NCBI GenBank assembly: GCA_000002445.1
Contig: CH464491.1
Span: 1,312,001-1,376,000 of the forward strand
DNA: 64,000 bases
From: Trypanosoma brucei
Taxonomy: Eukaryota
Direction: 5' to 3'
A program made the position numbers and the translations under genes. Positions 3,284 through 20,361 of this stretch are shown here, one piece after another. The notes under the pieces were generated by a model, which saw only the letters and a program-made list of their open reading frames with translations, was not told the origin of the DNA and made no database searches. Position 1 is the first letter of the stretch; each line of letters opens with the position of its first letter.

Positions 3284-6200
3284 TTGCCGCTGTGCATGCA
3301 CATCTGGCGGACCGCTGCAAGCAACTGGGTAAAGAGACACGCCCGTTCTAATGCGGCACGGTGGAGGCGCCCAGAACCCGCTTCATCAAGTGCGGCAGCC
3401 AAAACAATAGCAAGATTGCTCGCAGTTGGTGGCCACGGCTGCTGGTCAGAAGCAACCGCGCTTTATGCAGAAGCACTCGCAACAAAGTCTGTGCAGAGGT
3501 ACGGTGTTGTGACACCCGCGCACCGCCATGATTGTATTGCACTAATTCTCGGAGCTATGTCATCTTCTGTCGACGCCAGCGGCTCTGATATTAACAGGGG
3601 CGAGGAGTCACTCACACCCCATTATGGGATGTTGGCAGAACGCTTGTCGTTAGACATAATTGTGCCGCATAGTGATGTAGGACAGGAAGAGAAGGAGGCC
3701 GCCTCTGTCGCATGCATAGCGGTTTTCAGGGCGCTGTTAACCTCCGGTCGCACGCATGCTGTCCAGCGTTTTGCTCAGCAGTTGCTGCGAAGCAGAAACT
3801 CACGTGAACATGGATTGTGGGCGCTTCGCACAATTATGTTGGCAGTAACGGCAAGGGAAGAGGGAATGTACCGTCAGCTTTTTCTGCATAGTGGGCTGCT
3901 AAAAGATCTTGAACATCTCACGGGCCTTGACGCGTTCACGGTCGTGATGTCGTCGTGCGATGGCCACGAGAAAAATATTGGACCGTGTGGAGGGAGGACG
4001 GAAGGGAACCTTGGAAGAGATGAGGTACACCGTGTTGCGGCAAGGTGGTGCGTGGACGTGGCCCTGCACATGCACACGTGTCCTTGGAGATTCTGCTTGA
4101 CAAACGAGAAGGAGCCACGACGAGAAACGGCGTTTAACAGTGAAGTCACAAGCTATTGCTGTGCCAAAGAGCTTCCAATGCCGGCATTTGCGGTGACGAT
4201 GCTGCCATTTGAGGTGCTACGCAGCAACGCGGTCGGTGTGTTGCGCTGTTGTACTGCTGCTGGGAACGGCTCACATGGCAACGAGGTTGTTACCTTTGAT
4301 GGTACTGCAAGTAATGTTAGTGGCGGTCGTTCTGGTGATTCTACCAGTTGTAGCACAACCGCTCCATCGCTGGGACTTCCTGCACTTAAGCGTTTACAAG
4401 ATGTTGTTTCTGCTGCTATTGAGGTTCCTCTCTCCACATATGAGCCTGTTGAGTGCTTATACTTGCTACTTCAAATATCTCGTGACAGCACCGCCCCTGA
4501 CCCCAGGCGTGTGATGCCATCCACGATGAATATTTTGTGGTGGCGACGGCATCTGCAGAGTTGCGTCCTTGAATCTGTTAAATCGGCTGTTAGGTGGAAG
4601 TCGGTGTGCGACTTTGTTGGTTTGAGCCGCTTAGTCACAGAACGTGTGCCGCATTGTTTTCCCCTTCTGGTCGCTCACGCGGCCGAGTCCCCGGATGCCT
4701 TGAGGACACTGTTCAACGAGGTGTCGCGGCAGGAAGGCGCTGCAGCACATCCTGTGGACGACATCCCACGCTCGTGTGTGATGGGGCTCCTGCAGATGTG
4801 TGGAGATGAAAGATCCGCTGCCGTTATTGATTGGGTGGTAGAGCATTGTAAGGATCATGAGAGTATCGCACAATTCGTTTTGGACAGCCTTGGGCAGCAC
4901 CAGAAGCTTGCGTCGGTCGTCGTGCGGCGGCTCTTTCAGCGAAGTGAGCAAAGCTCGGACGTTATTAATGCGCTTTCGAGACTGCTTGAAAAGGGCACTT
5001 GCAGGACGCTATTGGCTGATGTTTGCTCACTTGTTCCCCAAGCCCAGCAGTGGACGGTAGCGCTGCGGTTTGTAAGCGGCATGTCGGCCCCAGAAGTTGG
5101 GCACGTCCACACCGCCTTCATGGCGTTTGTAGGGAATTGTGATGAGCAGTTTGCTATTAACATGGCACTCCTTTGGTCCGATGAGACCTTCACGTGGTTG
5201 AAGGCTGATGTGAACCCACCGCCCCGGCGGGTGTACATGGACGACAGATGGAGCGATGCGCTTCGTCTTGTAGCGCTGGGTGCGGAGCGGTTAACGCAGC
5301 GGCCGGAGTTGTTGGGAAAGTACATCCGTTATTTTTCTAAAAGGGTTGCGGTAAATTCTCGCCTGTACATGGAGTTGGAGGCGCTCTTAGCGTGCTCGAA
5401 GGTGGGCGGTGGTAGCGCACGTAACTGCGGCCGTTCTTCTAACTGGAATCCCATTGCCAGTACAGTCACTGGCGGTCCTCCCTTAGAAACTTCATTGGTA
5501 GGAGTACGAACCGGGGTGCTTCCGAAGGGTCAGCAGTGGATGGAGGCATGCGCACATGCATCTGAGGTGGGTGTCACGCGTGGAGTACTCGAGATCCTCG
5601 CGAAGCGTGGGAGATGGGAAGAGGCTACCATAGTGCTGGCGAGAGCGGAGGCGAAACGAAGAGTGGAGTGGGCCCCGCTAGTAATACGTGCCGCACGTCT
5701 TTCCAGTCAGTGGCGGGCTGCACTTTCCGTGGCAGAGAAAATTGCAGCCAACGGAATGAAACTGCATTACAGTGTAGTAGCGGAGTTACTTGCGTGCTGC
5801 TTTTCTGCCGATGTACCCCTTGAGGTGGTTCAATTGTGGCTGCACAGGCGTTCAGTTGGGGAAAGTACGTCCTCGCATGTACTTTTCGGTCTGGGCCCTG
5901 GTTCGAGCTTGAGGACCGAGCAGCGTGACGCCAACGACAAACACAACGTTTTCGGTGATGCATCGAGATGGCTGGGCTCGGCGCAGGCGGAGCTCTTTTT
6001 TGTCCTCCTTGAATCGTCTTCCAGTCGATCGTCGGATCATCAGTGGCGTTACGCCCTGCAATTGCTGAAAGAGCATGTGCTATTAAGTGGTGGTGTTCCG
6101 TCTGCACGGGTGTTCCGTTCTACATATTCCATATTACACCGGGCAGAGCGGTGGCGGGAGTCGCTGCAACTTTTGGGTCTGCAGCGATCTGTTTGCGGTT

Positions 6201-7864
6201 CCCCCACGGTTAAATGTGTGCACCTTGTACTGAGCACCTTGCCGAGCACAGCTTGGCAGTATGCTCTAGGAGCTCTCCAATGTATTCCGCCTGGAGATTC
6301 GGGTTCCATTCATCGTGTATTGCCCTTATTGTTACCGGTGTCGTGGGAGTCTGCATTAGGTTTAATGATTGATCATCGTGTCATGACAAATACAGCGATG
6401 GAGTGTGTTGTTGGTTGCGAGGACGTGCCCTTGGTCCTACGTCTGCAGGCATGGAGGCGTTTGTTGCCGTCGCTGCCCGTGTCCATGAAGCACCGTGCGG
6501 CACCGATTTATTTACGGCTGGCAGCTGGTGTTGCTGATGGTGATGTTGGTGTTGAAGGGACGAATGGTCTGGACGCGATGTGCGTCATTGAACGCTCGAT
6601 CCGGGGCCTACGGGGTGATTATATTAATTACGCATCGTTTGTATACCATCGTGCTTTGCTGCATCGCCACTGGTGTAATGACAGCCTTCACCCGAGTGGC
6701 GGTGTGGCGGCCTTCCGGGCACTTAGCGGCATTGCTGAGGTAGACCAACAGTGTGAAGTTAGTGCCGCTGCGTTGGAGCAGTTAAGCAACATTGTTGAAA
6801 GGTTGGAACAGGTGTGTGGAACGGTTAGTGCATCGACAGCAACACATGGTTCCCAACACCTGGAGCGCACGGTGCCGGTTGTAAACTCCGGTGAGATACT
6901 TCAGGGCTCAGCTCCCACGAATGCTAGGCGTGACCCTGAAACCCACTGTTTTTCCTTTGTTTCATCCTACTGGTTGTCCTTGTTTTATTTGTTTCGTTAC
7001 TGCCGTTGTGTAATCTCCAGTTCTTTATTCCCTTTTTTTTTAAAAAAAAAAGATCAGGGCAGTGGACTACCGATATTTGACGTCATGCGCCTACATACGG
7101 TCCGCGCGCCAATCATCACGCGAGCCGCTATGCGTGGCTACTCGGAGGCACGGAGCAACTATGACGGCACCTCTCTCCCTGCGTGGCCGGCACCAGGGAA
7201 GAAACCAACTTATCCCGCAGCACTGTCGGAGTTGAGACTGCCGCAGCCGCGCATGCGCAAGACTCGTACCGAATGGATGTATTACCACGGCCACGGCGGT
7301 TGCCCTGGAAAGTATGGGCCGTCACGAGAAATAGCTGACTTCGAATATGCGGATGGGACTCCGGCGAGCATTAGTGGACGCCGGTTCGCGTTTAAGCACC
7401 ACCAAGACCACTTGCTCGTACAGCTAATACGCGCTGCAGCCACTGTGGAGCGCTACGACGCGAGTGGGTTACTACCACGTATCCCTGGTACGGCTGAGCA
7501 ACGCAACTGGGACCCGGCCATTCCGCTTTTTCTTGATGATGTGGATGAGCAAGGCAGACCTGCACCGTTGCGCACTGCGGGCGACGCCCCGGGGACGATG
7601 GTTAGTCATGTGTGTTCCCGTGTTGTGGATGAACGGATGGGAACTCCCACGCATACGCCAAATGAACTCGCCAACCGTCACGAGGGAGAAACACTCGAGG
7701 CAAATACAATGTTTGCAACCAATGATCCGAGTGCCTTTGTGTCTGATACGGTGAAGTTGCGTGACGACAAGCGGCCTTACTGGTCGCGGCGCCGCTGGGC
7801 CCTAACAGATAAATTTTTGGTGCCTAAGAGCCCCAAACCAAAGAACACCATCAAGGACGAGTAG
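3284..7864 (+). CDS. Large hypothetical protein (1526-aa open frame; first ATG at 3296). Possibly two genes, see finding on internal polypyrimidine tract at ~6930-7085
   Basis: Long uninterrupted + strand ORF with coding-like composition. No recognisable catalytic motifs. The track start is TTG. Confidence 0.55.
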   Translation: MPLCMHIWRTAASNWVKRHARSNAARWRRPEPASSSAAAKTIARLLAVGGHGCWSEATALYAEALATKSVQRYGVVTPAHRHDCIALILGAMSSSVDASGSDINRGEESLTPHYGMLAERLSLDIIVPHSDVGQEEKEAASVACIAVFRALLTSGRTHAVQRFAQQLLRSRNSREHGLWALRTIMLAVTAREEGMYRQLFLHSGLLKDLEHLTGLDAFTVVMSSCDGHEKNIGPCGGRTEGNLGRDEVHRVAARWCVDVALHMHTCPWRFCLTNEKEPRRETAFNSEVTSYCCAKELPMPAFAVTMLPFEVLRSNAVGVLRCCTAAGNGSHGNEVVTFDGTASNVSGGRSGDSTSCSTTAPSLGLPALKRLQDVVSAAIEVPLSTYEPVECLYLLLQISRDSTAPDPRRVMPSTMNILWWRRHLQSCVLESVKSAVRWKSVCDFVGLSRLVTERVPHCFPLLVAHAAESPDALRTLFNEVSRQEGAAAHPVDDIPRSCVMGLLQMCGDERSAAVIDWVVEHCKDHESIAQFVLDSLGQHQKLASVVVRRLFQRSEQSSDVINALSRLLEKGTCRTLLADVCSLVPQAQQWTVALRFVSGMSAPEVGHVHTAFMAFVGNCDEQFAINMALLWSDETFTWLKADVNPPPRRVYMDDRWSDALRLVALGAERLTQRPELLGKYIRYFSKRVAVNSRLYMELEALLACSKVGGGSARNCGRSSNWNPIASTVTGGPPLETSLVGVRTGVLPKGQQWMEACAHASEVGVTRGVLEILAKRGRWEEATIVLARAEAKRRVEWAPLVIRAARLSSQWRAALSVAEKIAANGMKLHYSVVAELLACCFSADVPLEVVQLWLHRRSVGESTSSHVLFGLGPGSSLRTEQRDANDKHNVFGDASRWLGSAQAELFFVLLESSSSRSSDHQWRYALQLLKEHVLLSGGVPSARVFRSTYSILHRAERWRESLQLLGLQRSVCGSPTVKCVHLVLSTLPSTAWQYALGALQCIPPGDSGSIHRVLPLLLPVSWESALGLMIDHRVMTNTAMECVVGCEDVPLVLRLQAWRRLLPSLPVSMKHRAAPIYLRLAAGVADGDVGVEGTNGLDAMCVIERSIRGLRGDYINYASFVYHRALLHRHWCNDSLHPSGGVAAFRALSGIAEVDQQCEVSAAALEQLSNIVERLEQVCGTVSASTATHGSQHLERTVPVVNSGEILQGSAPTNARRDPETHCFSFVSSYWLSLFYLFRYCRCVISSSLFPFFLKKKDQGSGLPIFDVMRLHTVRAPIITRAAMRGYSEARSNYDGTSLPAWPAPGKKPTYPAALSELRLPQPRMRKTRTEWMYYHGHGGCPGKYGPSREIADFEYADGTPASISGRRFAFKHHQDHLLVQLIRAAATVERYDASGLLPRIPGTAEQRNWDPAIPLFLDDVDEQGRPAPLRTAGDAPGTMVSHVCSRVVDERMGTPTHTPNELANRHEGETLEANTMFATNDPSAFVSDTVKLRDDKRPYWSRRRWALTDKFLVPKSPKPKNTIKDE
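6938..7056 (+). promoter_or_regulatory. Polypyrimidine tract followed by T10/A10, embedded inside the 3284..7864 ORF; candidate trans-splice/polyadenylation signal region for a downstream gene starting at ATG ~7085
   Basis: Sequence ccactgtttttcctttgtttcatcctactggttgtccttgttttatttgtttcgttactgccgttgtgtaatctccagttctttattcccttttttttttaaaaaaaaaag is >85% pyrimidine and resembles intergenic spacers elsewhere in the window. Its translation is low-complexity (FPFFLKKKDQGSG). Confidence 0.4.
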
Positions 7865-8139: not shown

Positions 8140-8300
8140 GGCAAGCTGTGTTTTTTTCCTCTCTTTCTCTCGTAGTGGTAGTGGTGGTTTATGTCAATAC
8201 AACTATAGTTTCTGATATGTTTCTCACTTTATCGTGTTTATTGCGTGTCCTTGTTGTTGGTCTCAATATTGTTGCTCCCACTGCATTGTCCTTCATAACC
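8140..8300 (+). promoter_or_regulatory. Polypyrimidine-rich spacer upstream of the kinesin gene (candidate SL trans-splice acceptor region)
   Basis: Runs such as ttttttcctctctttctctcgtag and ...ctcactttatcgtgtttattgcgtgtccttgttgttggtctc precede the ATG at 8399. Inference from kinetoplastid mRNA processing rules. Confidence 0.4.
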
Positions 8301-8398
8301 ACTTGTCAGTAATAAATAGATTACACATAAATTGGTACGACAGCTGGTGGCTGTGGCGCTAGGGGGAAACTTTACCCATATCAATTAGAGACCAGGGC

Positions 8399-10471
8399 AT
8401 GACCTCACTCTGTCCAATTACGAGTTCAATCACCGTAGCTATACGCAAGAGGCCAATCGCAAATAATGGAAACTCGGGAGACAAGGACATTGTTACATGT
8501 GAGGACTGTCGCACCATATCAGTGCACGAACCGAAGACACGCGTTGACCTTAAGGCAGTGGTGGAGACCTCAGCTTTTGCATTTGATTATGTATTTGATG
8601 AGTCTGTGGCAAACGATGTGGTATACAAGGTGTGCTGTCAACCGTTGCTGTCGGATGTACAGAACGGGGGAAGCGTTGTGGTTATTGCCTTTGGCCAGAC
8701 GGGCAGTGGGAAAACACACACCATGTTGGGTCACGGCAGCAAGACCATAGGGTTGTATGGATACGCCATTAGGGAGCTGATTGGCGAAGAAACCACTCGC
8801 AAGCTTGCGGTTAGCTTCTATGAGGTTTACGGTTCTAAGCTCTTTGACTTGTTGAATGGACGGACACAGTTGAAAATGATGCAGGATGAGGCTGACAATC
8901 TTCGGATTGTCGGGTTGTCGGAGAAAGTTGTCACATGTGACAAGGAGGTATATAAACTCATTTCAAAAGGAGAGTCGCTGCGTTCATCTGGGTCAACGCT
9001 CGCAAACGACACGAGCTCCCGATCGCACGCAGTGCTGGAAATCAAGGTTCTCAATTATCAGGGTGAGCCGCATGGTGGCCGAGTCACTCTTATAGATTTA
9101 GCCGGTAGTGAGCGGGCTGCGGATACGACAAGTAGTGATACAAGGGGACGACATGAAGGAGCTGAGATAAACAAGTCTCTGTTGGCCCTCAAGGAATGTA
9201 TTCGGGCCATGTCAAGGAACAGACGGCATATTCCTTTTCGTGCCTCCAAGTTGACGCAGGTGCTGCGTGAAAGTTTTATTGGTAATTGTAAGACATGTTT
9301 CATAGCGACAGTTTCACCCTTGCAGCGGCACTGTGAGGATACGCTGAACACGTTGCGGTATGCTAACCGCATAAGGGACCTTAAAGCCCCCTCCGATGAC
9401 GGCTTCAGCCGTAAGATATCGATGACATGCCCCAACTGCAATGGCCCCGTACGCCCTGATGCATCCCACACATGCGTGCGTTTGTCCACACGATGTCCGC
9501 ACTGTAGACAAGTGGTAGAAAAACATAACCTCGAAGGGCACATCGAGGAGTGTAGCGAGTTTCCCGTACGATGTCCTCGCTGTAATGAACTGTTAGTGCG
9601 CGGTGATATTCCACGGCACAATCGTCGTTGTTCCCGATCTCTAGTGCGCTGTCCGTTGTGCACATGCCACGTGATGCGCTGTGGTTTGGAGAAACACACT
9701 CTGATGGATTGCGGGGCCAAACTAGAGAAGTGTCGTTATTGTGGACAGGGGTTTCCACGTCACTCATTGAAGAGGCACGAAGACGTGTGCACGATGATGA
9801 AGATCGCCTGTCCTTATTGTCTGCAATATTTTAGAAAAGTTTGCGTAGATGCTCATGCCTCGGTGTGTGTAAGGAACCCAAACTGCAGGCGAGTGTCACC
9901 GTCAAGGATTAGGGATTCGGGTGAAGAGGTGTGGAAGATAACAAACGGAAAGGAATGGCGGCAACGGCCTCGGATGTTAAGGAACCAGTCGTTGAAGCAG
10001 CTTGAGGCAATCTCTCGAACAAAATCAAGTGTGCAGCTTCGGGAAGGGCGAAAACCCTTAGGGCCACTTGAAGACAATTTTTCACTTCCCGCTTTGCACG
10101 CACCCTCCTCAGCCCCCGACAGGAAACACCCACCGGTTACCAGCGCTTTCACCGAAAGCCTACAAAGTCACCCCAACAGCGAGGACGATGATGCCGACAA
10201 GGAAGTTTGCAGAACCGCCCCAACTATCAGTGGAGAAAATAGCAGCCGAGTTGGAGGTGAAGGTTGTGTTTGCCCTTACGCTGCCTATGGTTGCTTGCAC
10301 ACTGTGTGTGACTCTTCTCTAGAGAAGCATATGAAAGACTCGGTAGAAATGCATCTGCAATTGGTTCGTGACTACGCAGAGCGGGTTTCAGAAGAAAATA
10401 ACATTCTTCGGGAGCGTGTGAATGAGGGCACCACTAAGGCTTCAAAGCTTCATGAACTTGAAAGCGTGTGA
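8399..10471 (+). CDS. Kinesin-13 family motor protein with C-terminal TRAF-type zinc-finger repeats
   Basis: ATG start. Motor motifs GQTGSGKTHTM (P-loop), SSRSH (switch I), DLAGSE (switch II). Kinesin-13-type neck and loop (KTRVDLKAVVETSAFAFDYVFDE), as in MCAK. The C-terminal half has repeated C-x2-C...H-x3-C units (CPNCNG..., CPHCRQ..., CPRCNE..., CPLCTCH..., CRYCGQ..., CPYCLQ...) typical of TRAF-type zinc fingers. Confidence 0.85.
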   Translation: MTSLCPITSSITVAIRKRPIANNGNSGDKDIVTCEDCRTISVHEPKTRVDLKAVVETSAFAFDYVFDESVANDVVYKVCCQPLLSDVQNGGSVVVIAFGQTGSGKTHTMLGHGSKTIGLYGYAIRELIGEETTRKLAVSFYEVYGSKLFDLLNGRTQLKMMQDEADNLRIVGLSEKVVTCDKEVYKLISKGESLRSSGSTLANDTSSRSHAVLEIKVLNYQGEPHGGRVTLIDLAGSERAADTTSSDTRGRHEGAEINKSLLALKECIRAMSRNRRHIPFRASKLTQVLRESFIGNCKTCFIATVSPLQRHCEDTLNTLRYANRIRDLKAPSDDGFSRKISMTCPNCNGPVRPDASHTCVRLSTRCPHCRQVVEKHNLEGHIEECSEFPVRCPRCNELLVRGDIPRHNRRCSRSLVRCPLCTCHVMRCGLEKHTLMDCGAKLEKCRYCGQGFPRHSLKRHEDVCTMMKIACPYCLQYFRKVCVDAHASVCVRNPNCRRVSPSRIRDSGEEVWKITNGKEWRQRPRMLRNQSLKQLEAISRTKSSVQLREGRKPLGPLEDNFSLPALHAPSSAPDRKHPPVTSAFTESLQSHPNSEDDDADKEVCRTAPTISGENSSRVGGEGCVCPYAAYGCLHTVCDSSLEKHMKDSVEMHLQLVRDYAERVSEENNILRERVNEGTTKASKLHELESV

Positions 10472-11627
10472 ACCTGCAAATTAAATCACATGCCTCAGTG
10501 CGCACAAGCATATATCCACATATATTTGTTTATTTCTTTATATATCCGGCACGTATTTAGTTAATTGACAGAGCGGATTGCAGTTAATAGAGGACTTTTT
10601 TTTCCTGCAATCGAGTATATATATATTTTTTCGCTTTCTTTTTTCTTCGTTCCACTATGCCCGTGCTGCAGAGCCCCTGTTTTTAGTTTTTTTTACTATC
10701 CACTAGCGTAGGGTAACGCTTATGCTTACTAACTACCAGTTGCCTTTCCGGTATCGGCGAGGAAGGGAACGGAAGAGGTTTTTTTTAAAAAAAGATTAAA
10801 GGAAGAAGCGGTGACAGGTGTTGACGTACCGCAGTATTCTCATTCGGTTCAGTTCACGTTTCCTTCAATTGGTTTCTACTTTTTTTTTTGTTTAATCTTT
10901 CACTTTCTGCTTTCTCCCTTTTCCCTTTTCCCCTCCCCGCTTCCGTACCCCTATTTTCCTCTGGCCTCCGCCCTGTGGGCGAAAAAGGTGAGTAAATGTG
11001 TTACGAGTATGCAACTGTGCATAAATATATGAATAAATATATATATATATAACTAGAACAGTAAATAAGAGCATTGAATTGCGGTAACCCGTGGTGGTGA
11101 AAGGAGCTGCAACAAACTTGGAGGAAAGAAAAAAAAAGGAAATGAAAATGTGATTTCGCTCCCCTCCTTCCTTTCTTCCTTACACACATACTCGCTTCCC
11201 CTCCCCCCTCCCCACAATTTCTCTCTCATTTTCTCATTGGGAATTATGCTCCCGGCGACCGATGCATGTGAAGACGTGCCGTGTTGTTGTCGTCCCCCCC
11301 CGTGTGGTGTTATTACCATTGTGCTTTTGCATTATTGTTCTTTTTTGTTTGTTTGTTTGTTTTCATTTCAACAAATTGTTGGGTCCCCCTCCCTCCGCAC
11401 ACCCCTGATTGGGTATTCTGTTTTGCTTTGACGCGCACCCGTATTTTCTACCGTCGTTATTGTTGATTCCTGCTTACATCTCTGCTGTCGTTATCAGTAC
11501 ACTTATATTATGGTCAAGATGTTCGTCACTTAACTGACTAAATTAACCCAACATTGTTATTATTGTGAATATTAATGCTTTTATTTGTTGCTGGCGCTTT
11601 TTTTTTTCGAATTTATGCTTTTTCCTC

Positions 11628-11670
11628 CTATATATATATATATATATATATTTATTTATTTATTTATATA
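11628..11670. repeat. (TA)n / (TTTA)n microsatellite
   Basis: tatatatatatatatatatatatttatttatttatttatatata. Confidence 0.9.
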
Positions 11671-12279
11671 TAGTTTCATCGGTATAGGGCAGTGTGTATA
11701 TGTGTGAAGGAATGAGAGAAAAAGGAATTAGGGGGAGAGAGTAGAAGGAACCGAAGAAATGGAAAAGAAAGCGAGGGAAATGTGCCATCGGGTTGTGGTA
11801 TTTTTGGCCGCTAAATCAAGTATGTATGAAGAAATGCATTTAACAAATGAGCAAGTCATCAAGTGGGGTTGCAACTGCGGCCTCATTGGGTAACTACTTG
11901 CCGCATATGTGCGATGAATGGCATTCGTGTATATATATATATACGCATTTTATATTTCACCTTCATATATATTTGTGGTTCCATTTCATCAACTCATGTC
12001 TCAGTTGTATTACGTCTGACGTTATTCCCGCACGCTTGTTTTATTATTATTTTTTTCCTCCCCCTTTTCGTTTTTCCTCATTCCAATCCTTTTTAATAGG
12101 TAACAAGGTGTAGCTCCTCTCCTGTCCCTTTAGGTAATAGGGAGGGATTTTCCACCCGCGAAAGTGCGGTGTGTGTGCGTGTGGAAAAAACAAACCAAAT
12201 AATTAGTTCTTTAAAAAAAAAACAAAAAGAAGGAAGGGGGTAAGACGAGTTATTTTTGACTCGTGTCTTGGAGGGAAAT

Positions 12280-12609
12280 ATGCCGGGCATTGAGCGTCTT
12301 CGAGAAGAGGTGGAGCAACTGAGAAGTGAAACCAATAGACTAAAGGAAAATTTGAAATTGCAGAATCCACAAAGTGTCAGGGAGAGGAGCGGCTCGGACC
12401 GTCAGCATATGGAAGTGGAGTCATTTAGAGCTCAAATACGAAAGCATCACGCGGATGCCCCGATTTTGAAACTCCATGACGAATTATTAAGAGCGGAGCA
12501 GCGATGTACCCAATACGCCGATGCCTTGGCAGAAAGCAAAGGAAACTTCGTAAACATGAAGAGGCTCTACCAGGAACTCAGCGATATTCTTGACGGATGT
12601 TCAGCGTAA
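12280..12609 (+). CDS. Small coiled-coil hypothetical protein (109 aa from first ATG)
   Basis: ORF 12256..12609 has a TTG track start; first ATG is at 12280. Heptad-like charged sequence (IERLREEVEQLRSETNRLKENLKL). Sits in an otherwise long non-coding spacer. Could be spurious. Confidence 0.35.
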   Translation: MPGIERLREEVEQLRSETNRLKENLKLQNPQSVRERSGSDRQHMEVESFRAQIRKHHADAPILKLHDELLRAEQRCTQYADALAESKGNFVNMKRLYQELSDILDGCSA

Positions 12610-13454
12610 TGAAATGTTGTGTTTTTTTTTATATATTGTGGGGAAGTTTGGCTCCGCCCTTATTTGTGTCTTTTCCTCCCGTTTCCTACGGGGGAGGAGG
12701 GGGGAAAAAAACATCTAGTGGGGGGATTTCTTTTTTACCGCCCTTCAGTGCCGCCTCCTCGAGTTTCTGCGGCTTCGCTCGCTTAATTATTTGCTGTTTC
12801 GACTACTGTGAGGATGAGGGATCCATGAGATGTATTAGCTGTGGTGTTTCAATACAGCGATGAGTGAGGTGTTGTGTTCTCTTTTGTCTCATATTTTTCT
12901 GCTCCCCCTCTTTTTTTACATCTCCCTTTTCGCTTCACCGTGTGAGGCATACGAATTATCTGGCGGTTGTATTGTACATATTTGTATCTAAAGAGGAAAC
13001 GGCTGAAGTGCGAAGGGAAACATACAAATTGTGAGTTGCTGTCGTGTCTCATTTGCTTCAGTACAGGTGTAGTGCAGTGAAGTGTGACCATAATTTACTT
13101 CACAACTTCCCTTTTCGCTTCTTTTTACCACGGCTTGGTGAGTTTTTTTTCCTTTCTTTTTTTCCCCCTTAAATCTCGGATTCCCCGTAAGCGTCTGCTT
13201 TCAACATTGTGTTGGCGTCTGCTCACATAGCATCCACGTTTTTTTTTTTAAGGGGCAGTTACAAGGGCTTCTCACATCACGTGAAACTACAGGGGGGGGG
13301 GAAGTGCGGAAAGGGCTCTTCCGCAACACCGACTTCGTACGGTTTGTGTGTGGTAACGAAAGAAAAAAGTGGAAGTGAAGGCAGGGAAAGAACACCTTCC
13401 ACCTTCGGGTTAGGTAAATAAGTATAAGCATTACGTAAATAAAAGGCAGACAAC

Positions 13455-14495
13455 ATGAGGCCAGATTACATGGGTTTCATGTTCCTTACGAGCGGTGTAA
13501 TGTCGTTCAACGCGGGAATCTGGCAACTGCATCGCCGGCGGCAGAAGCGCCGTTTGATGGAAAACCACAAGAATATCCGCAAACCTCCAGTATATGAACT
13601 TCCACCAGGAGATGCCACCATCGACGAGTTTGAATTCCTCCCAGCCGCCTTCGAGGGCACATTTGATAACGAAGGCTCCATGCTTGTGGGCCCGCGTGCT
13701 CTTCCGACTTATAAGGGAGCCTCTTCAAACGAAGAGAGTAACGGGGGATTTCTGGTGGTGACGCCTTTTGAGATTGCCCACACCGGTCAGTTCATAATGG
13801 TGAACCGTGGCTGGGTTCCCATAGACGCCGGAAAGCACAGGACTCTCCTCATGCAGTACGTTGGCGAGGGTTTCACACCGGGTTCAGTGCGTGGCATATT
13901 CCGGCGTGAGGAATACATGTCTGCTTCACTAATTTGGGGACCGAATAAAGACAATGAGGGCCCCGTTGCCGCGGATTTATCGTGGCTGGTCATGCGCCCA
14001 TGGAACATGGCGGTCCACTACTACAAGCGCAGGTGGGGACCTGATCGTGCAGAGGAGTCGGTAGAAAAGCACGGTGCGCGGCATTACTACTTGGAAATGA
14101 TTGAGGACTATTCGGGAGATGACCAGCGAATGGTGCGCGGCCACCCGTGGCCATGGCGACGCAGCGTAGATGAAATAACTTACGTCCACTTACCCCCTTC
14201 TGTGCATACCATGTACATTTTCTTCTGGTTCTCTGTTACTCTGGGGTCTCTCTACGGTATGGGTAAATGCTACAAACGACAGAAGGAACTCTTTGCGCTG
14301 CGCAGGCAAATGACTGCACAGACAACACTGCTGGAACGGAAACGACAAGAGGAAGCGAAAATGTACATGGAGGCAATGAAGGAGGTGGAGCGGTTGAAGA
14401 AGTTGGGAACTGTCGCGGCACCGCGAATTGGGTCACAACCAACTGAACAACAGAAGTCAGATGAAAAGTCTCCCGCCTCAGGGGAGAAGTCGTAA
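13455..14495 (+). CDS. SURF1: SURF1/Shy1 family cytochrome c oxidase assembly protein
   Basis: ATG start. N-terminal TM helix followed by the conserved GIWQLHRRRQK motif (cf. GTWQVQRRKWK in human SURF1). Later VVTPFE...IMVNRGWVP matches the SURF1 VVTPF...ILVNRGFVP block. A second TM helix lies near the C-terminus (MYIFFWFSVTLGSLYG). Confidence 0.88.
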   Translation: MRPDYMGFMFLTSGVMSFNAGIWQLHRRRQKRRLMENHKNIRKPPVYELPPGDATIDEFEFLPAAFEGTFDNEGSMLVGPRALPTYKGASSNEESNGGFLVVTPFEIAHTGQFIMVNRGWVPIDAGKHRTLLMQYVGEGFTPGSVRGIFRREEYMSASLIWGPNKDNEGPVAADLSWLVMRPWNMAVHYYKRRWGPDRAEESVEKHGARHYYLEMIEDYSGDDQRMVRGHPWPWRRSVDEITYVHLPPSVHTMYIFFWFSVTLGSLYGMGKCYKRQKELFALRRQMTAQTTLLERKRQEEAKMYMEAMKEVERLKKLGTVAAPRIGSQPTEQQKSDEKSPASGEKS

Positions 14496-16050: not shown

Positions 16051-16146
16051 AAAAAAGGGCTATCACGTGTAGCACAAGGGCATATAGAAAGAGAGGTATA
16101 CGTGCCTATTTGTATAGATATAGACTTTCATATAGAGTGAGTGTGC

Positions 16147-19100
16147 ATGCGGCTAAATAGCTGCTGGATACGGAGGGTACACAGGGGAATTGCACAGTCG
16201 AACTTAAGATGTGTCTCTACCTTCGCCGCTCTTGTAAAGGTGCAAGAAGCCCTGAAAAGTTCGAAACCATTTGCTGATGATGCCAAGGGTTTTGCAGAGT
16301 TCTTTCGAGTTCCATGTCTTCCCGGCGTTGGGGCGCAGGAGAGCGTTCGCCGCCACTACGACCGAGTGCTCCGAGACCTCAAGCAACAAAAAGATAGCTA
16401 CGTCATGCGACAACAAGGACAAGATGAGCGTGTCAACGAGGAACTTCCAATCTTTTTGGTCTCATATGATACTGGATCGAAAAACTTTTACCTCTTTTCG
16501 GTCGAGAAAGATTGCAATGCAGTCCGCTCTCCAGCTGATGGTGAGTCAGACGTATCAGGTTTGGCGGACGAACTAATGCAATACACACGCGGCATGACAC
16601 AAGCGATTATGATTCCCATTGTGGCCGACGAAGAGGAGCGGGGAGCTCTGGCCCCTCACCTGACGCGACTCAGCGGTGAACTGAAACGGTGTGGCATCAT
16701 TCCTGTTCTCAGTGTTGATAGCTTAGAAATCATAAAGACACTAGATCCCCAGCAGTCGCCTGTTCGTATCGTGACAAAAGGTCGCGGCAAGCATGCGTCG
16801 GAGCCACTCACCGAAGAGTGGTTTCGCGCCCATTGGGTACACCTGCGCACGCTCGTCTTCAAATCCAGCGAGGAGGACCCCATTATTACTTTGAACCGCC
16901 TCGTCGCGCCACGGTTTACCATATATGTTATTCACCTGGTGCGCGCAGGTTCCCGCGGACTTAACGTGGCCCTTTATGAGCCGCTTCAGAAAAAACGATA
17001 TGGAGCAAAGGGGATGCTTTCCGACGTTTTGGGCTGCCTCTTAGAGAGGCAAGCAAAGCAGGTGATATTTCTCCCAACGAACCGTACAGATCGTCCCACA
17101 TTACTGCGATGTCGTACCGCGCTCACAAAAATGGGACGCACTTGTTACCTTGTCTTCCCATCAGAGATTGGGGAAAAGTATCGTGGGGTATATCAGTCGG
17201 ATCCGGCCCGGTACTGGTCATCGCTATGTGAGGTAAAAGGTTCTCTCGACGCAGATTTCAGCTTTGAAGTGTACGCAACTGTAGGAAATAATATTCGCAC
17301 CCAGCAGTACAAGCGAACGAGAGAAAATTTACTAGAGAAGCAGGCTTCCTTAAGCAGCGAAAATAACATGCCGGCAGTAACAAACTCTGAGGTGGAGAAG
17401 TGGCTTCGTGTTCTTTCACTCGATAAGCGTGTGTCATGTGAAAAGGCACAAATGCGCAAGTACAAAAAGTACCTTGTGATTGCATTCATGGCGACGGAAT
17501 TTGCTGCATACACTCGACCGGCAAACCCCCACGCACCTGCGAATTATGTGGTAGCTACTAGCATTATGGACTATCAGCAACAGGTTGTGGAGCCATGGAC
17601 CAAGTACTCTTCCCGCGGGGAGTTCAAGCTACCCTCATTGGAAGGGTTCGATGTTATTGTGTGTCACGATGTTAAACACTTCGTGTTATTGATATGGGAC
17701 GATCCCGAACTCCGACGTTTCTTAAAGCGTGGGGGAAGGGTGTGGTGCACGATGTTCGCAGAATACCTCCTCGACGCCCAGAGGTGTCAGTCTGGCAGCA
17801 ATAGCCTTCACGACGTGGCAATGAAATACGGCATCCTCACACCACAGTCGTCGGTTTTGGGGCTCAGTACGCCAGACCTCCCCATTGCATTTATTCAACA
17901 CTACCTGGTAGCCGCAGTGGATGCTATATCCCGTGTTTTTCAAGAACAACTCAAAAAGGCCTGTGGGAATAGCCAATTGATTTGTGTCGCCCATCGGATG
18001 GATTCGTTGCTAGCGATGGCTTCCATAGAGAAGGCTGGAATTCACATCGATTCCAAGGAGGCAACTCTGCAGGCACAGGCGATCCGTAATCGGTTATTGG
18101 CTATCGACAAGTCTCTCTCTCTTTATGCACCCGATGAAATACCACTTGACATGCAACGGTTCTTCGACTGGACTTCCTTACAACACCTTCAGGCCTACTT
18201 CTTCGGTGGAAGCATTACGTTGGGCTACACAGACATTTCGCGTGATTCCTCCACATGGACCGCCCATCTCATTCATCTCTGCCATAAATACGGCAACCTC
18301 GGGCTCATGTCGGCAGATGTGCACCTACAGCGGTTCGCTTCTGAAAGAGGGTTGCGGGGAGCTGGGCGTTTACCACAGCGTGTGGCACGATTCTTTGATG
18401 CGGACGGAAGCTCCCGGAGGCGCAAGTACAGACTAGTTGTATTTGATATTGAATCCACGGGATTGAATACAGCGACTGACGCCATAATTGAGGTTGCTGC
18501 ATTTGATCCCGTGGAGGGGACGTCTTTTAGCTCATTGGTAAATCCGCAACGCCCCATCCCGCCACAGTCTACCGCTATCCATCACATAACCGACAGTATG
18601 GTGCAGGGAGCTCCGCGTTTGTCAGAGGTTACACAAGCCTTTGCACGGTACTTGCGGCTGAGTGAAGGGCAGCGCGATGAGGATGAAGTTACAATCCTCA
18701 TAGGTCACAATGTTTTCGCCCTTGATGAACCGCTCCTTCGCCGCGCTTTTCGGTCTGAAAGTGTGGATACAGAGAACCTTCTCTTTTGTGATTCGCTCAC
18801 TATACTTAAGGGTCTCAAGCAGGAACTGCAGGGGTCAAAGAAAGATTCGAAGTTTGACAGAGGGGTGCTGGATATATTGACCAACTCACTTCGTCTCTCT
18901 TCCCTCGTAGAAGGCTTGCGTGTAGAGGCCGACGGAGAACTTCACCGTGCCGACACGGATGCGAAAATGCTGTGGTTTGTTCTCGTTAACGCTTTCGGTA
19001 TCGGGGGAAAGGATGCCGTCAAGCAGCGCGATGAGGTGCTTAGCCATGCTGTACGCACGCTGGTATTGTACCCAGGTGTTGGGTGTTTTCTTCCGCAGGA

Positions 19101-20361
19101 GCGACGAAAGGATTGCGTCACAGTTCAGTTACCTGGCGTATGCTTCAAGGCGATAAAAGAAAAACGAACCATTGAACAGCTTCGCAAGCGCCACCTCGAT
19201 GAGGCAACATTTGTCGTGTTACAGCGGCACAAGCTGGAGGTAGCGGGGCTTCTACTACAAAAGTTGCAATTAGAGCGTGGCTCCGCAAATTTTCTCCACT
19301 CGGGAACTGATGGCCGGCTGTCCATCCTTCATAGTGACAATAAGGTAAGACAGTATATTGATCTTACCGCTACCACAACTTCACGCACAACGAGCTCCTA
19401 CCCAAGCTGCCAAAATATCCCGAAGGACGACAAATCTTCGCTACGCCACCTTTTTGTATCAAGGTTTGGTGAGAAGGGCCGTTGCGTGGAAATTGACTAC
19501 TCGCAGCTGGAGATTGTTGTTATGGCTGTTCTCTGTGAGGACGAAAGGCTCGTTTCAGACCTAAACCAGGGGGTCGACTTCCACGTGAAACGCGCTTCGT
19601 TTTTCAGTGGAATATCCTATGATGAAATCTATAACGGATACAAGCGTGGAGAGGCCAAATTTCTCAAGCTACGTAAAGTGGCCAAGACTTTCTCGTTTCA
19701 GCGTTTGTATGGTGCAGGCGTGCCGCTGCTTCACAAAACGACTGGTATCCCCGTTCAGGATCTTCAGGAATGTATACGCAGGGAAGAGGAAGAATATCCA
19801 GGTATATCGCGCTTCCACCGTCTCGCTCGGACGGTTGCTCTGCGGGCAAATAATCCCGGTCTGCCAACACACTTCATTGTTGAGCTCCCTACAGGCCTAC
19901 GCGTATGTTACAAAACCCGAGATGTAGTGCTCAACCTTCCTCCAGTGAAAAATTACCCCATTCAAAGCTTTGGTGCGGAACTTGCCCAAATGATGATTGG
20001 GCGCGTATTTCGTCAATTCGTGCGCAAAAGTTTTTACGGCCAAAAAGCCTTTATGATAAACTTCGTACACGATTCGCTTTGGCTCGACTGCCACATGAGT
20101 GTCCTTGAGGAATGTGTACACGAGACGCGCACCATCATGGAAGAAGTAGACACGTACGTGGCAAAGACATTCCCAGGTGTTAAGTTGAAAGTTCCGCTGA
20201 AGGTTTCAGTGGACTGTGGCGTGGATATGTGTGCCATGGAATCCGTCAAGGATGATTTCAGCGCGCTCGCGTCACAGCAGCGAAGCAAATCGTCAGAGTT
20301 AGATGCACTTATACCCGAACTTAGTAAGGAAGTTACTGACAGTGTAGAAATTACGGTGTAA
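16147..20361 (+). CDS. POLIB: Family-A (Pol I-like) DNA polymerase with inserted DEDD 3'-5' exonuclease domain; mitochondrial POLIB-type architecture
   Basis: Exonuclease motifs: Exo I VVFDIESTGL, Exo II IGHNVFALDEP, Exo III HRADTDAKM. These lie ~250-350 aa upstream of polymerase motif A (EIDYSQLEIVVMA), consistent with insertion in the thumb. Motif B is KVAKTFSFQRLYGAG and motif C is VHDSLWLD. The ~1400-aa size matches kinetoplastid POLIB. The symbol rests on architecture and on recalled neighbourhood with PGFS. Confidence 0.8.
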   Translation: MRLNSCWIRRVHRGIAQSNLRCVSTFAALVKVQEALKSSKPFADDAKGFAEFFRVPCLPGVGAQESVRRHYDRVLRDLKQQKDSYVMRQQGQDERVNEELPIFLVSYDTGSKNFYLFSVEKDCNAVRSPADGESDVSGLADELMQYTRGMTQAIMIPIVADEEERGALAPHLTRLSGELKRCGIIPVLSVDSLEIIKTLDPQQSPVRIVTKGRGKHASEPLTEEWFRAHWVHLRTLVFKSSEEDPIITLNRLVAPRFTIYVIHLVRAGSRGLNVALYEPLQKKRYGAKGMLSDVLGCLLERQAKQVIFLPTNRTDRPTLLRCRTALTKMGRTCYLVFPSEIGEKYRGVYQSDPARYWSSLCEVKGSLDADFSFEVYATVGNNIRTQQYKRTRENLLEKQASLSSENNMPAVTNSEVEKWLRVLSLDKRVSCEKAQMRKYKKYLVIAFMATEFAAYTRPANPHAPANYVVATSIMDYQQQVVEPWTKYSSRGEFKLPSLEGFDVIVCHDVKHFVLLIWDDPELRRFLKRGGRVWCTMFAEYLLDAQRCQSGSNSLHDVAMKYGILTPQSSVLGLSTPDLPIAFIQHYLVAAVDAISRVFQEQLKKACGNSQLICVAHRMDSLLAMASIEKAGIHIDSKEATLQAQAIRNRLLAIDKSLSLYAPDEIPLDMQRFFDWTSLQHLQAYFFGGSITLGYTDISRDSSTWTAHLIHLCHKYGNLGLMSADVHLQRFASERGLRGAGRLPQRVARFFDADGSSRRRKYRLVVFDIESTGLNTATDAIIEVAAFDPVEGTSFSSLVNPQRPIPPQSTAIHHITDSMVQGAPRLSEVTQAFARYLRLSEGQRDEDEVTILIGHNVFALDEPLLRRAFRSESVDTENLLFCDSLTILKGLKQELQGSKKDSKFDRGVLDILTNSLRLSSLVEGLRVEADGELHRADTDAKMLWFVLVNAFGIGGKDAVKQRDEVLSHAVRTLVLYPGVGCFLPQERRKDCVTVQLPGVCFKAIKEKRTIEQLRKRHLDEATFVVLQRHKLEVAGLLLQKLQLERGSANFLHSGTDGRLSILHSDNKVRQYIDLTATTTSRTTSSYPSCQNIPKDDKSSLRHLFVSRFGEKGRCVEIDYSQLEIVVMAVLCEDERLVSDLNQGVDFHVKRASFFSGISYDEIYNGYKRGEAKFLKLRKVAKTFSFQRLYGAGVPLLHKTTGIPVQDLQECIRREEEEYPGISRFHRLARTVALRANNPGLPTHFIVELPTGLRVCYKTRDVVLNLPPVKNYPIQSFGAELAQMMIGRVFRQFVRKSFYGQKAFMINFVHDSLWLDCHMSVLEECVHETRTIMEEVDTYVAKTFPGVKLKVPLKVSVDCGVDMCAMESVKDDFSALASQQRSKSSELDALIPELSKEVTDSVEITV

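What the first reader, a model, noticed from the sequence alone, without database searches (positions are those of the whole stretch)
8399..10471. Unusual domain fusion: kinesin-13 depolymerase motor with a TRAF-type multi-zinc-finger tail
The motor has the kinesin-13 specific neck and loop-2 region (FAFDYVFDE right before the P-loop), implying microtubule-depolymerising activity. The tail carries at least six C-x2-C / H-x3-C TRAF-like zinc fingers, which are protein-interaction or ubiquitin-linked modules not found on metazoan kinesin-13s. This would be a lineage-specific way of targeting a depolymeriser, for example to the flagellum tip or the spindle.
Basis: partly seen in the sequence, partly recalled or inferred. 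Interest (0 to 1): 0.5.

Follow-up and report, generated by a model that had tools for sequence, protein, structure and literature searches.

The report
Known trypanosome flagellar-tip kinesin-13, TbKif13-2
This gene is TbKif13-2, the already published Trypanosoma brucei microtubule-depolymerising kinesin that sits at the flagellum tip; its tail of TRAF-type zinc fingers is real, conserved across Euglenozoa and already flagged in databases, but nobody has tested what the tail does.

Summary
The 690-aa ORF at 8399-10471 (+) is real. It is TbKif13-2/TbKIN13-2 (Tb11.02.2260): the published full-ORF cloning primers match its first and last codons exactly. The motor is a catalytically intact kinesin-13 with an R-V-D loop-2 finger and the KEC motif, and its best sequence and fold matches are KIF2A, KIF2C and KLP10A.

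The tail has four parts: one short atypical finger; five C-x2-C-x11-H-x3/4-C fingers with fixed 6-residue linkers; a 120-aa disordered linker; and a C-x6-C-x11-H-x7-H finger joined to a 40-aa helix. The T. brucei copy alone misses Pfam's zf-TRAF cut-off (20.1 vs 27 bits). However, 47 of 48 orthologues match zf-TRAF, a family profile hits TRAF4, TRAFD1 and TRAF6 fingers first, and the predicted fold matches TRAF6 best.

The same architecture occurs in kinetoplastids, diplonemids and euglenids. Tip localisation and weak length phenotypes are published, and orthologues are already named as TRAF-finger kinesins. I found no paper that discusses the tail. My inference is that it dimerises the motor and docks it at the tip. 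Verdict: already known, with low to moderate interest.

The parts
8399..10471 (+). Complete coding sequence of TbKif13-2 / TbKIN13-2 (Tb11.02.2260), 690 aa plus stop codon
   Evidence: ORF. A 100% identical protein is found in T. brucei gambiense DAL972 (P0001). The published full-ORF primers match 8399-8415 (+) and 10443-10468 (-) with 0 mismatches, and the antibody-fragment primer at 9488 corresponds to residue 364 as published.
8360..8362 (+). In-frame TAG upstream of the start codon. It fixes the N-terminus and leaves no room for a neck or N-terminal domain.
   Evidence: Read directly from the sequence. Orthologues in Trypanosoma have only 10-14 residues before the first motor strand.
8151..8175 (+). 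Polypyrimidine tract ending in AG; candidate trans-splice acceptor for this mRNA (inferred, not tested)
   Evidence: Sequence tttttttcctctctttctctcgtag read. The role is inferred from general knowledge of trypanosome mRNA processing.
8420..9388 (+). Kinesin-13 motor domain (residues 8-330)
   Evidence: Pfam Kinesin E=8e-86. PDB phmmer gives KIF2A 315 bits, KIF2C 305, Klp10A 294 and PfKinI 241, against at most 193 bits for any other class. The top 18 Foldseek hits are all kinesin-13 structures. Model pLDDT is mostly above 85.
8534..8548 (+). Loop-2 finger K-T-R-V-D (residues 46-50), the kinesin-13 'KVD' element, here R-V-D
   Evidence: Across 48 orthologues position 48 is K in 22 and R in 19, position 49 is V, L or I in 47, and D50 is present in 47. 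It aligns with KVD of KIF2A and KIF2C.
8693..8716 (+). P-loop GQTGSGKT (residues 99-106)
   Evidence: G99, Q100, G102, S103, G104, K105 and T106 are invariant and T101 is at least 90% conserved in 48 orthologues.
9014..9112 (+). Switch I SSRSH (206-210) through switch II DLAGSE (233-238)
   Evidence: both motifs are conserved in the 48 orthologues, with S237 at 90% or more and the other residues invariant.
9191..9199 (+). KEC motif (residues 265-267), a kinesin-13 class signature in the microtubule-binding face
   Evidence: present in 48 of 48 orthologues.
9428..9475 (+). Short atypical finger C344-x2-C347-x9-H357-x-C359. It is specific to kinetoplastids and absent from euglenid and diplonemid orthologues.
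   Evidence: alignment A2. Model confidence is lower here, pLDDT about 75.
9494..9868 (+). Array of five TRAF-type C2HC fingers (residues 366-385, 392-411, 418-438, 445-464, 471-490) with fixed 6-residue linkers and net charge +11
   Evidence: Spacing. Ligands are invariant or at least 90% conserved. Each unit is predicted as beta-beta-alpha with pLDDT 93-97. The family profile hits TRAF4 (2.9e-10), TRAFD1 (2.1e-9) and TRAF6 (5e-8). Foldseek best hit is TRAF6 3hcs, E=1.4e-7. Charge.
9896..10255 (+). Disordered linker rich in Ser, Pro and Arg (residues 500-619)
   Evidence: pLDDT below 50. Its length varies from 51 to 283 aa and it has no conserved motif, including no conserved SxIP.
10271..10354 (+). 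C-terminal finger C625-x6-C632-x11-H644-x7-H652
   Evidence: C, G, C, H and H are invariant in 20 diverse orthologues. pLDDT 91-97. There is a weak profile match to the TRAF-type finger of FBXO30 (2yre, E=0.012).
10343..10465 (+). C-terminal helix (residues 649-689) with heptad core V649 L653 V656 A660 V663 N667 L670 V674; putative coiled coil
   Evidence: Helix H649-689 with pLDDT 84-97. Heptad register. L653 and N667 are conserved in at least 90% of sequences and L670 is invariant.

Best explanation
The ORF encodes TbKif13-2 (TbKIN13-2, Tb11.02.2260). [quoted passage not shown]

Shown here:
- It has an N-terminal, catalytically intact kinesin-13 motor with the R-V-D loop-2 finger and the KEC motif, and it has no neck.
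- About 15 residues after the motor comes one short finger and then five TRAF-type C2HC fingers. Their fixed 6-residue linkers match the spacing that gives TRAF6 a straight rod.
- The finger array carries a conserved positive charge.
- A variable disordered linker follows.
- The protein ends with a conserved CCHH finger fused to a roughly 40-residue amphipathic helix.

Shown by others: tip localisation in T. brucei and Leishmania; microtubule depolymerisation by the Leishmania orthologue; a weak or conditional effect on flagellum length; and activity that increases when tubulin is not detyrosinated.

Inferred:
- The C-terminal finger and helix pair two chains. A conserved core Asn suggests a parallel dimer, as is usual for kinesin-13s.
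- The finger rod is a protein-binding surface that holds the depolymerase on a partner at the axoneme tip. There the motor removes tubulin from the plus ends of axonemal microtubules.
For: Identity:
- The published full-ORF primers match 8399-8415 and 10443-10468 exactly, and the antibody-fragment primer gives residue 364 as stated in the paper.
- A 100% identical protein exists in T. b. gambiense.

Kinesin-13 class: plus the published phylogeny and motif analysis in PMC2990766.

Absence of a neck: and PMC2990766.

Tail anatomy.

TRAF-type assignment:
- 47 of 48 orthologues match zf-TRAF.
- The family profile hits solved TRAF4, TRAFD1 and TRAF6 fingers first.
- The best fold match is TRAF6 RING-ZF1-3.
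- 69 of 78 non-kinesin relatives of the array are zf-TRAF proteins, with RING, MATH, Sina or TRAFD1 domains as partners.

Protein-binding role by analogy: the related C2HC array of the ciliary-tip protein CEP104 binds Nek1 and CP110 (PMC5222566). That array is a Foldseek hit at probability 1.00 and 28% identity.

Localisation and activity: PMC2984613, PMC2924347, PMC2990766 and PMC11761321.

Dimer inference: heptad core with conserved N667 and L670.

Selection on the tail: ligands and architecture are kept from trypanosomes to euglenids.
Against: - No experiment on the tail was found. I could not read Blaineau et al. 2007, which may contain deletion constructs.
- The tip-docking partner is unknown.
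- The T. brucei copy alone is below Pfam's zf-TRAF cut-off (20.1 against 27 bits).
- No oligomer prediction could be run, so dimer, trimer or monomer remains open. TRAF coiled coils are trimers.
- Knockout of the gene gives no length change in T. brucei or in wild-type Leishmania, so the physiological importance of the whole protein is modest or conditional.
Confidence: 0.7

Rival explanations
1. The basic finger rod is a microtubule or tubulin-tail tether rather than a partner-docking module. Placed directly after a neckless motor, its positive charge would bind the acidic C-terminal tails of tubulin. It would raise the on-rate as the charged neck does in MCAK, and it could contribute to the sensitivity to tubulin tyrosination. 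This could coexist with the main explanation.
For: Net charge of the 150-residue array is +5 to +16 (median +10) in all 48 orthologues, while the motor is near neutral with a median of 0. The neck is absent. Leishmania KIN13.2 activity depends on the tyrosination state of tubulin (PMC11761321). That the charged neck raises the microtubule on-rate of MCAK is from my own knowledge and was not checked here.
Against: Many zinc-finger arrays are basic for unrelated reasons. Sensitivity to tyrosination in animal kinesin-13s does not need such a tail. TRAF-type fingers are not known to bind tubulin. No test was done here.
Confidence: 0.15
2. The fingers are ubiquitin-linked. They would bind ubiquitin or ubiquitylated axonemal proteins, or work with an E2/E3 enzyme.
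For: Finger 5 of the profile gives weak matches to the ubiquitin-binding CCHC fingers of RAD18 (E=0.018) and WRNIP1 (E=0.045). One orthologue matches Pfam zf_UBZ at 2e-4. Many non-kinesin relatives of the array carry RING domains.
Against: This protein has no RING, U-box or MATH domain. The UBZ matches are at chance level for a Cys/His-rich profile. In TRAF6 the fingers support the RING domain and are not known to bind ubiquitin on their own (my own knowledge).
Confidence: 0.08
3. The array is a classical C2H2-like nucleic-acid-binding finger array.
For: The profile and the fold also hit C2H2 arrays at E of about 1e-6 to 1e-4: SNAI1, HIC2 and a consensus finger peptide in the profile search, CTCF in the fold search. 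The array is basic.
Against: TRAF-type fingers outrank all C2H2 hits in both searches. The last ligand is Cys, not His. There are no TGEKP-type linkers. The protein is at the flagellar tip and excluded from the nucleus.
Confidence: 0.03
4. The feature is not what it seems: either the motor belongs to another kinesin class or is dead, or the Cys/His pattern arose by chance.
For: None beyond the sub-threshold Pfam zf-TRAF score for this one protein.
Against: There is a gap of about 50-120 bits between kinesin-13 structures (241-315 bits) and every other class (at most 193 bits). All catalytic motifs are intact. KEC is present in 48 of 48 orthologues. The shuffle test gives 5 units observed against a maximum of 2 in 20,000 shuffles. 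Ligands are invariant across Euglenozoa.
Confidence: 0.01

Closest known systems
Leishmania KIN13-2 (LmjKIN13-2 / LmKIN13.2) and other trypanosomatid KIN13-2 orthologues
   Same: These are orthologues with about 43-45% identity over 96-99% of the length. They share the architecture: N-terminal motor, short finger, five fingers, disordered linker, then terminal finger and helix. They localise to the flagellar tip. Depolymerase activity and length effects are published for the Leishmania protein.
   Different: The T. brucei protein has the shortest N-terminus (10 residues against 31-42) and the most divergent fingers; it is the only one of 48 that misses zf-TRAF at E of 1e-3 or better. The length phenotypes are much weaker in T. 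brucei.
Animal kinesin-13B (MCAK/KIF2C, KIF2A, Klp10A)
   Same: The motor is 42-48% identical with the same fold, the same loop-2 K/R-V-D finger and the same KEC motif.
   Different: The animal proteins have an internal motor preceded by a charged neck and an N-terminal targeting domain (PF22923), and they have no zinc fingers. TbKif13-2 has an N-terminal motor, no neck and a zinc-finger tail.
TRAF6 / TRAF4 zinc-finger region
   Same: Same C2HC finger type, same C-x2-C-x11-H-x3/4-C spacing, same fixed 6-residue linkers, and a final C-x6-C-x11-H-x7-H finger followed by a coiled coil. These are the best profile and fold matches. The TRAF6 ZF4 spacing is from my memory of the sequence; the linker lengths are visible in the alignment.
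   Different: TbKif13-2 has no RING domain in front and no MATH/TRAF-C domain behind. A 120-aa disordered linker separates the array from the last finger. It is attached to a motor, not to a signalling adaptor.
CEP104 zinc-finger array (PDB 5lpi)
   Same: It is a C2HC array on a protein of the ciliary tip that binds other proteins (Nek1, CP110; PMC5222566). It has the highest sequence identity among structural hits, 28% at probability 1.00. The profile E-value is 1.8e-5. T. brucei has a CEP104 homologue, ACS3, listed as a flagellar-tip protein in T. brucei (PMC6281473).
   Different: CEP104 has four fingers with variable linkers packed into a globule. Here there are five fingers with fixed linkers as in TRAF6. 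The Pfam CEP104_ZnF score is sub-threshold, 18.0 against 27.4. A shared partner is only a lead and was not tested.
Human KIF24 and other kinesin-13A proteins (Chlamydomonas, Giardia)
   Same: Same subfamily according to the published phylogeny, no neck, and cilium-related roles.
   Different: Their tails differ. No TRAF-type array was seen on any non-euglenozoan kinesin among the listed hits.

Membership tests
Kinesin-13 | Kinesin motor with intact P-loop, switch I and switch II | tested here: met
   Pfam Kinesin E=8e-86. GQTGSGKT, SSRSH and DLAGSE are present and conserved in 48 orthologues, with T101 and S237 at 90% or more and the other residues invariant.
Kinesin-13 | Motor closer to kinesin-13 than to any other kinesin class | tested here: met
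   PDB phmmer gives 241-315 bits for kinesin-13 chains and at most 193 bits for all others. The top 18 Foldseek hits are all kinesin-13. The published Bayesian tree places the protein in 13A (PMC2990766). My own NJ tree has no outgroup.
Kinesin-13 | Loop-2 K/R-V-D finger | tested here: met
   R48-V49-D50. Across 48 orthologues: K in 22, R in 19, and D in 47.
Kinesin-13 | [quoted passage not shown] | tested here: met
   K265-E266-C267, present in 48 of 48.
Kinesin-13 | Positively charged neck N-terminal to an internal motor (a feature of subfamily 13B only) | tested here: not met
   An in-frame stop lies 13 codons upstream, and the motor starts at about residue 10. According to PMC2990766 no 13A or 13C protein has the neck, so this does not exclude family membership.
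Kinesin-13 | ATP-dependent microtubule depolymerisation | not testable with these tools
   Reported for the Leishmania orthologue (PMC11761321; Blaineau 2007 as cited). Not shown directly for the T. brucei protein in the papers read.
TRAF-type zinc finger (Pfam PF02176) | Score above Pfam's gathering cut-off | tested here: inconclusive
   This protein scores 20.1 bits against 27, E=0.0011. Of 48 orthologues, 47 match at E of 1e-3 or better, best 3e-18.
TRAF-type zinc finger (Pfam PF02176) | Tandem C2HC units with C-x2-6-C-x11-H-x3-7-C/H spacing and a period of about 27 residues | tested here: met
   Five units start at 366, 392, 418, 445 and 471 (periods 26, 26, 27, 26), and there is a terminal C-x6-C-x11-H-x7-H unit.
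TRAF-type zinc finger (Pfam PF02176) | Closest solved relatives are TRAF-type fingers, by both sequence profile and fold | tested here: met
   Profile: TRAF4 2.9e-10, TRAFD1 2.1e-9, TRAF6 5e-8. Foldseek: TRAF6 3hcs 1.4e-7.
TRAF-type zinc finger (Pfam PF02176) | Zinc actually bound, one ion per finger | not testable with these tools
   Requires metal analysis of purified protein. Seven sites are predicted.
TRAF proteins (RING - fingers - coiled coil - MATH) | N-terminal RING domain | tested here: not met
   No RING family appears in the Pfam scan at E up to 1.
TRAF proteins (RING - fingers - coiled coil - MATH) | C-terminal MATH/TRAF-C domain | tested here: not met
   No MATH hit. The protein ends with the helix at residue 689.
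TRAF proteins (RING - fingers - coiled coil - MATH) | Last finger followed directly by a coiled coil | tested here: met
   Finger at 625-652 runs into helix 649-689 with a heptad core. The oligomeric state is untested.
CEP104-type zinc-finger array | Pfam CEP104_ZnF above cut-off, and a globular packing of four fingers with variable linkers | tested here: not met
   Score is 18.0 bits against 27.4, and only 3 of 48 orthologues match. The linkers are fixed at 6 residues, which PMC5222566 associates with the linear TRAF6 arrangement.

The most novel reading that the evidence does not exclude
The conserved, basic, TRAF6-like finger rod may be the element that confines this depolymerase to the axoneme tip. 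It could do so by binding the same kind of tip-module partner as the CEP104 finger array (for example a NEK-kinase coiled coil or the CEP104/ACS complex), by reading tubulin C-terminal tails, or by both. It would thereby take over the job of the missing kinesin-13 neck. On this reading the euglenozoan ancestor already had such a finger-tailed kinesin-13A, and the other trypanosome paralogues lost the tail.
Probability: 0.2. Interest if true: 0.5.

Novelty: already known. Interest (0 to 1): 0.22.

Why it matters
The gene matters for flagellum length control in trypanosomatid parasites. Recent Leishmania work makes its orthologue a reader of tubulin tyrosination linked to virulence (PMC11761321). 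What remains unexplained is how a neckless kinesin-13 with no N-terminal targeting domain is held at the flagellar tip. The conserved finger rod and the terminal finger with its helix are the obvious candidates, and the constructs needed to test them are simple. This would be a useful but incremental addition to a known system, not a new kind of system.

Tried and rejected
1. A tail-only search in the word-indexed protein database returned a single hit and did not even find the query itself. It was uninformative. I replaced it with the exhaustive profile search.
2. Blaineau et al. 2007, the first description of LmjKIN13-2, is not held in the library. I could not check whether its authors noted or deleted the fingers.
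3. Searches for 'KIN13-2' with 'zinc finger' found no papers. 'kinesin-13' with TRAF, zinc finger and trypanosom found 3 papers; in the one I opened the zinc-finger passages concern CEP104, and I did not open the other two. 'zinc' is absent from the three main TbKif13-2 papers.
4. I looked for an EB1-binding SxIP motif in the linker. None is conserved.
5. A profile of the C-terminal module against solved structures gave only marginal hits: FBXO30 TRAF-type finger at E=0.012 and LNX2 at 0.14. Its TRAF-like nature therefore rests mainly on ligand spacing.
6. My NJ tree of motor domains has no outgroup and no support values. I do not use it for classification. It leaves open whether euglenid and diplonemid finger-kinesins are true orthologues of KIN13-2 or descend from an ancestral finger-bearing kinesin-13A.
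I could not measure zinc-site geometry or confirm the rod shape directly.
8. Rfam and tandem-repeat scans of the surroundings found nothing relevant.
9. The antisense ORFs at 9058-9720 and 9405-9767 lie inside the conserved coding sequence and were treated as chance ORFs.
Full report
**The observation**

The window holds an uninterrupted 690-codon ORF at exactly 8399-10471 on the + strand. Pfam finds a kinesin motor at residues 16-327 (E=8e-86). It also gives three sub-threshold zinc-finger matches in the tail: zf-TRAF at 20.1 bits against a cut-off of 27, zf-C2HC_2 at 17.7, and CEP104_ZnF at 18.0.

A regular-expression scan finds five C-x2-C-x11-H-x3/4-C units starting at residues 366, 392, 418, 445 and 471. 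It also finds a shorter C-x2-C-x9-H-x-C unit at 344-359 and a C-x6-C-x11-H-x7-H unit at 625-652. In 20,000 shuffles of the tail, 98.9% contained no such unit and none contained more than two. The pattern is therefore not a by-product of Cys/His richness.

**Identity**

The protein is 100% identical to a 'MCAK-like kinesin' of Trypanosoma brucei gambiense DAL972 on a 4.5-Mb contig, and one orthologue is named 'Kinesin-13 2'.

Chan et al. 2010 (PMC2924347) list the primers they used to clone the whole TbKif13-2 ORF (Tb11.02.2260). The forward primer matches window 8399-8415 and the reverse primer matches 10443-10468, directly before the stop codon, both without mismatch. Their antibody-fragment primer lies at 9488, which is residue 364, exactly as their methods state. 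The ORF is therefore TbKif13-2, also called TbKIN13-2.

**What is published about it**

- Myc-tagged protein is found only at the distal tip of old and new flagella. Deleting both alleles does not change flagellum length, and overexpression shortens it by about 5% (PMC2984613).
- GFP tagging at the endogenous locus also shows strong tip enrichment. The protein falls in subfamily kinesin-13A, has the KVD-type finger and the KEC motif, and, like all 13A proteins, lacks the charged neck (PMC2990766).
- The Leishmania orthologue depolymerises microtubules in RPE1 cells and sits at the tip. Its deletion restores flagellum length in cells that cannot detyrosinate tubulin (PMC11761321).
- None of the three TbKif13-2 papers contains the word 'zinc', and no paper in the library pairs KIN13-2 with 'zinc finger'.
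- Blaineau et al. 2007 could not be read.
- Database annotation already records the fusion. Nearly all orthologues carry a precomputed PF02176 hit, and one Leishmania entry is named 'Kinesin motor domain/Microtubule binding/TRAF-type zinc finger containing protein'.

**The motor**

Against solved structures, KIF2A, KIF2C and Klp10A score 281-315 bits and the Plasmodium kinesin-13 scores 241. The best non-kinesin-13 chain scores 193. The top 18 Foldseek matches of the full-length model are all kinesin-13 structures.

The P-loop, switch I and switch II are intact. The loop-2 finger reads K-T-R-V-D. Across 48 orthologues the basic position is K in 22 and R in 19, and the Asp is present in 47. KEC is invariant.

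FAFDYVFDE (residues 60-68) is the strand after loop 2 and lies 30 residues before the P-loop. There is also no neck: an in-frame TAG sits 13 codons upstream of the ATG, and the first motor strand starts at residue 10. Trypanosoma orthologues have 10-14 residues there and Leishmania relatives have 31-42.

**The tail**

In an alignment of 48 orthologues, 16 ligand positions in four fingers are invariant. The ligands of the fifth finger and three of the four ligands of the C-terminal finger (C625, C632, H644) are conserved in at least 90% of sequences. H652 was checked separately and is invariant in the 20-sequence alignment.

AlphaFold2 run with this alignment gives:
- pLDDT 93-97 for residues 360-499, with each finger as two short strands and a helix;
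- pLDDT below 50 for residues 500-619;
- pLDDT 91-97 for the last finger and most of the helix at 649-689, falling to 84 near its end.

A separate model of the array alone has mean pLDDT 92.8.

The linkers between fingers are always six residues. Al-Jassar et al. (PMC5222566) note that fixed spacing gives TRAF6 its linear finger rod, whereas CEP104's variable spacing gives a globule.

The array is basic in every orthologue, with net charge +5 to +16 and a median of +10. The motor is near neutral.

The linker varies from 51 to 283 residues and has no conserved motif.

The terminal module has invariant C, G, C, H and H, followed by a helix whose heptad core contains a conserved Asn and Leu.

**Is the tail TRAF-type?**

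The T. brucei protein alone narrowly fails Pfam's cut-off. The family-level evidence is consistent, however:
- 47 of 48 orthologues match zf-TRAF at E of 1e-3 or better, with a best value of 3e-18.
- A profile of the array hits TRAF4, TRAFD1/FLN29 and TRAF6 fingers ahead of every classical C2H2 protein. CEP104 follows at 1.8e-5.
- Foldseek ranks TRAF6 RING-ZF1-3 first at 1.4e-7. CEP104 scores probability 1.00 with 28% identity.
- An exhaustive profile search finds about 14,000 representative proteins. Many are giant multi-finger proteins.
- Of 78 smaller hits scanned with Pfam (77 without a kinesin motor), 69 are zf-TRAF proteins, with RING, MATH, Sina, TRAFD1/XAF1, CEP104_ZnF, filamin or TIR domains as partners.

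The array is thus a member of a widespread and promiscuous TRAF-type finger module. The protein itself is not a TRAF, because it has neither a RING nor a MATH domain.

**Distribution**

Among the 150 best representatives, about 15 are kinesin fusions. By their source names, the sequences I could identify come from three groups:
- trypanosomatids: Trypanosoma, Leishmania, Leptomonas, Angomonas, Strigomonas, Novymonas and Porcisia;
- euglenids: Euglena gracilis, and RCo, which I read as Rhabdomonas;
- a diplonemid: Hpha, which I read as Hemistasia.

The rest are unnamed environmental sequences. A euglenid fragment also has the terminal finger and helix, so the whole architecture is old within Euglenozoa. 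No animal kinesin-13 in the list has the fingers. I cannot exclude weaker fusions elsewhere, because only the top 150 hits are shown.

**Mechanism**

Shown here or by others: a tip-localised, catalytically intact kinesin-13A with a conserved finger rod and a terminal finger with a helix.

Inferred: the helix pairs two chains, and the rod binds a tip-resident partner and so concentrates the depolymerase at axonemal plus ends. The support for this inference is indirect:
- there is strong purifying selection on the finger ligands;
- related arrays in TRAF6 and CEP104 bind proteins;
- the protein has no other domain that could target it.

A rival that may coexist with this model is that the basic rod tethers the neckless motor to the acidic tubulin tails. 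The ubiquitin-linked and nucleic-acid-binding readings have little support.

**Verdict**

The gene, its class, its location and its phenotypes are published, and the finger annotation already exists in databases. The remaining open point is the function of the tail.

Noticed in passing
window 3284-7864 (+), especially 6956-7864: The 1526-aa ORF upstream is a read-through of two genes in one frame. It crosses a polypyrimidine/A-rich intergenic tract at about 6956-7060. A separate 259-aa gene starts at ATG 7085 and ends at 7864. That small protein is 51% identical to the N-terminal part of P0145, which is a fused gene model lying upstream of the KIN13-2 orthologue in another trypanosomatid. The neighbour is therefore syntenic. 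Pfam finds no domain in the ORF as a whole.
   Followed up: partly
window 1-64000: Apart from two ORFs that overlap + strand ORFs (28547-29497 and 60563-61432), all ORFs of 250 aa or more are on the + strand, as expected for one trypanosome polycistronic unit. The neighbours are functionally unrelated: a calpain-like protease (46-2820), SURF1 (13455-14495), a family-A DNA polymerase with an exonuclease domain (16141-20361) and an aldo-keto reductase (20644-21474). No Rfam family reaches its threshold anywhere in the window.
   Followed up: partly
window 10472-13454: A 3-kb stretch downstream of the kinesin has no ORF of 250 aa or more. GC is lower there (0.417 in 10001-12000) and there is a (TA)n run at 11629-11672. 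It is presumably a long 3' UTR plus intergenic region.
   Followed up: no
orthologues P0051, P0054, P0056 (euglenid and diplonemid): These finger-bearing kinesin-13s have 80-163 extra N-terminal residues. The extension begins with a small CxxC...CxxC zinc-ribbon (for example MAACPGCEGPLLANANFCGHCG) that is absent from trypanosomatids. They also lack the short kinetoplastid-specific finger 0.
   Followed up: no
orthologues P0024, P0028-P0033, P0036 (environmental, kinetoplastid-like): These carry one more complete C2HC finger directly before the terminal C-x6-C finger (for example CKYCARFV...H...DCMYIPVRCPYEPYGC). Trypanosoma and Leishmania have lost it.
   Followed up: no
motor-domain NJ tree: Kinetoplastid finger-kinesins form one clade. 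The euglenid and diplonemid finger-kinesins fall nearer the finger-less KIN13-1 group. If this is real, the finger tail would be ancestral to euglenozoan kinesin-13A and would have been lost in some paralogues. The tree has no outgroup and no support values.
   Followed up: partly
representative proteins P0121-P0124, P0237: There are giant proteins of 1,944-4,842 aa made largely of the same finger type. One has up to 38 C-x2-C-x11-H-x3-C units, and another has 29 matched stretches. Their source organisms are unknown.
   Followed up: no
window 9058-9720 and 9405-9767 (-): Two antisense ORFs of 220 and 120 aa lie inside the kinesin coding sequence. I treated them as chance ORFs in a conserved coding region.
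   Followed up: no
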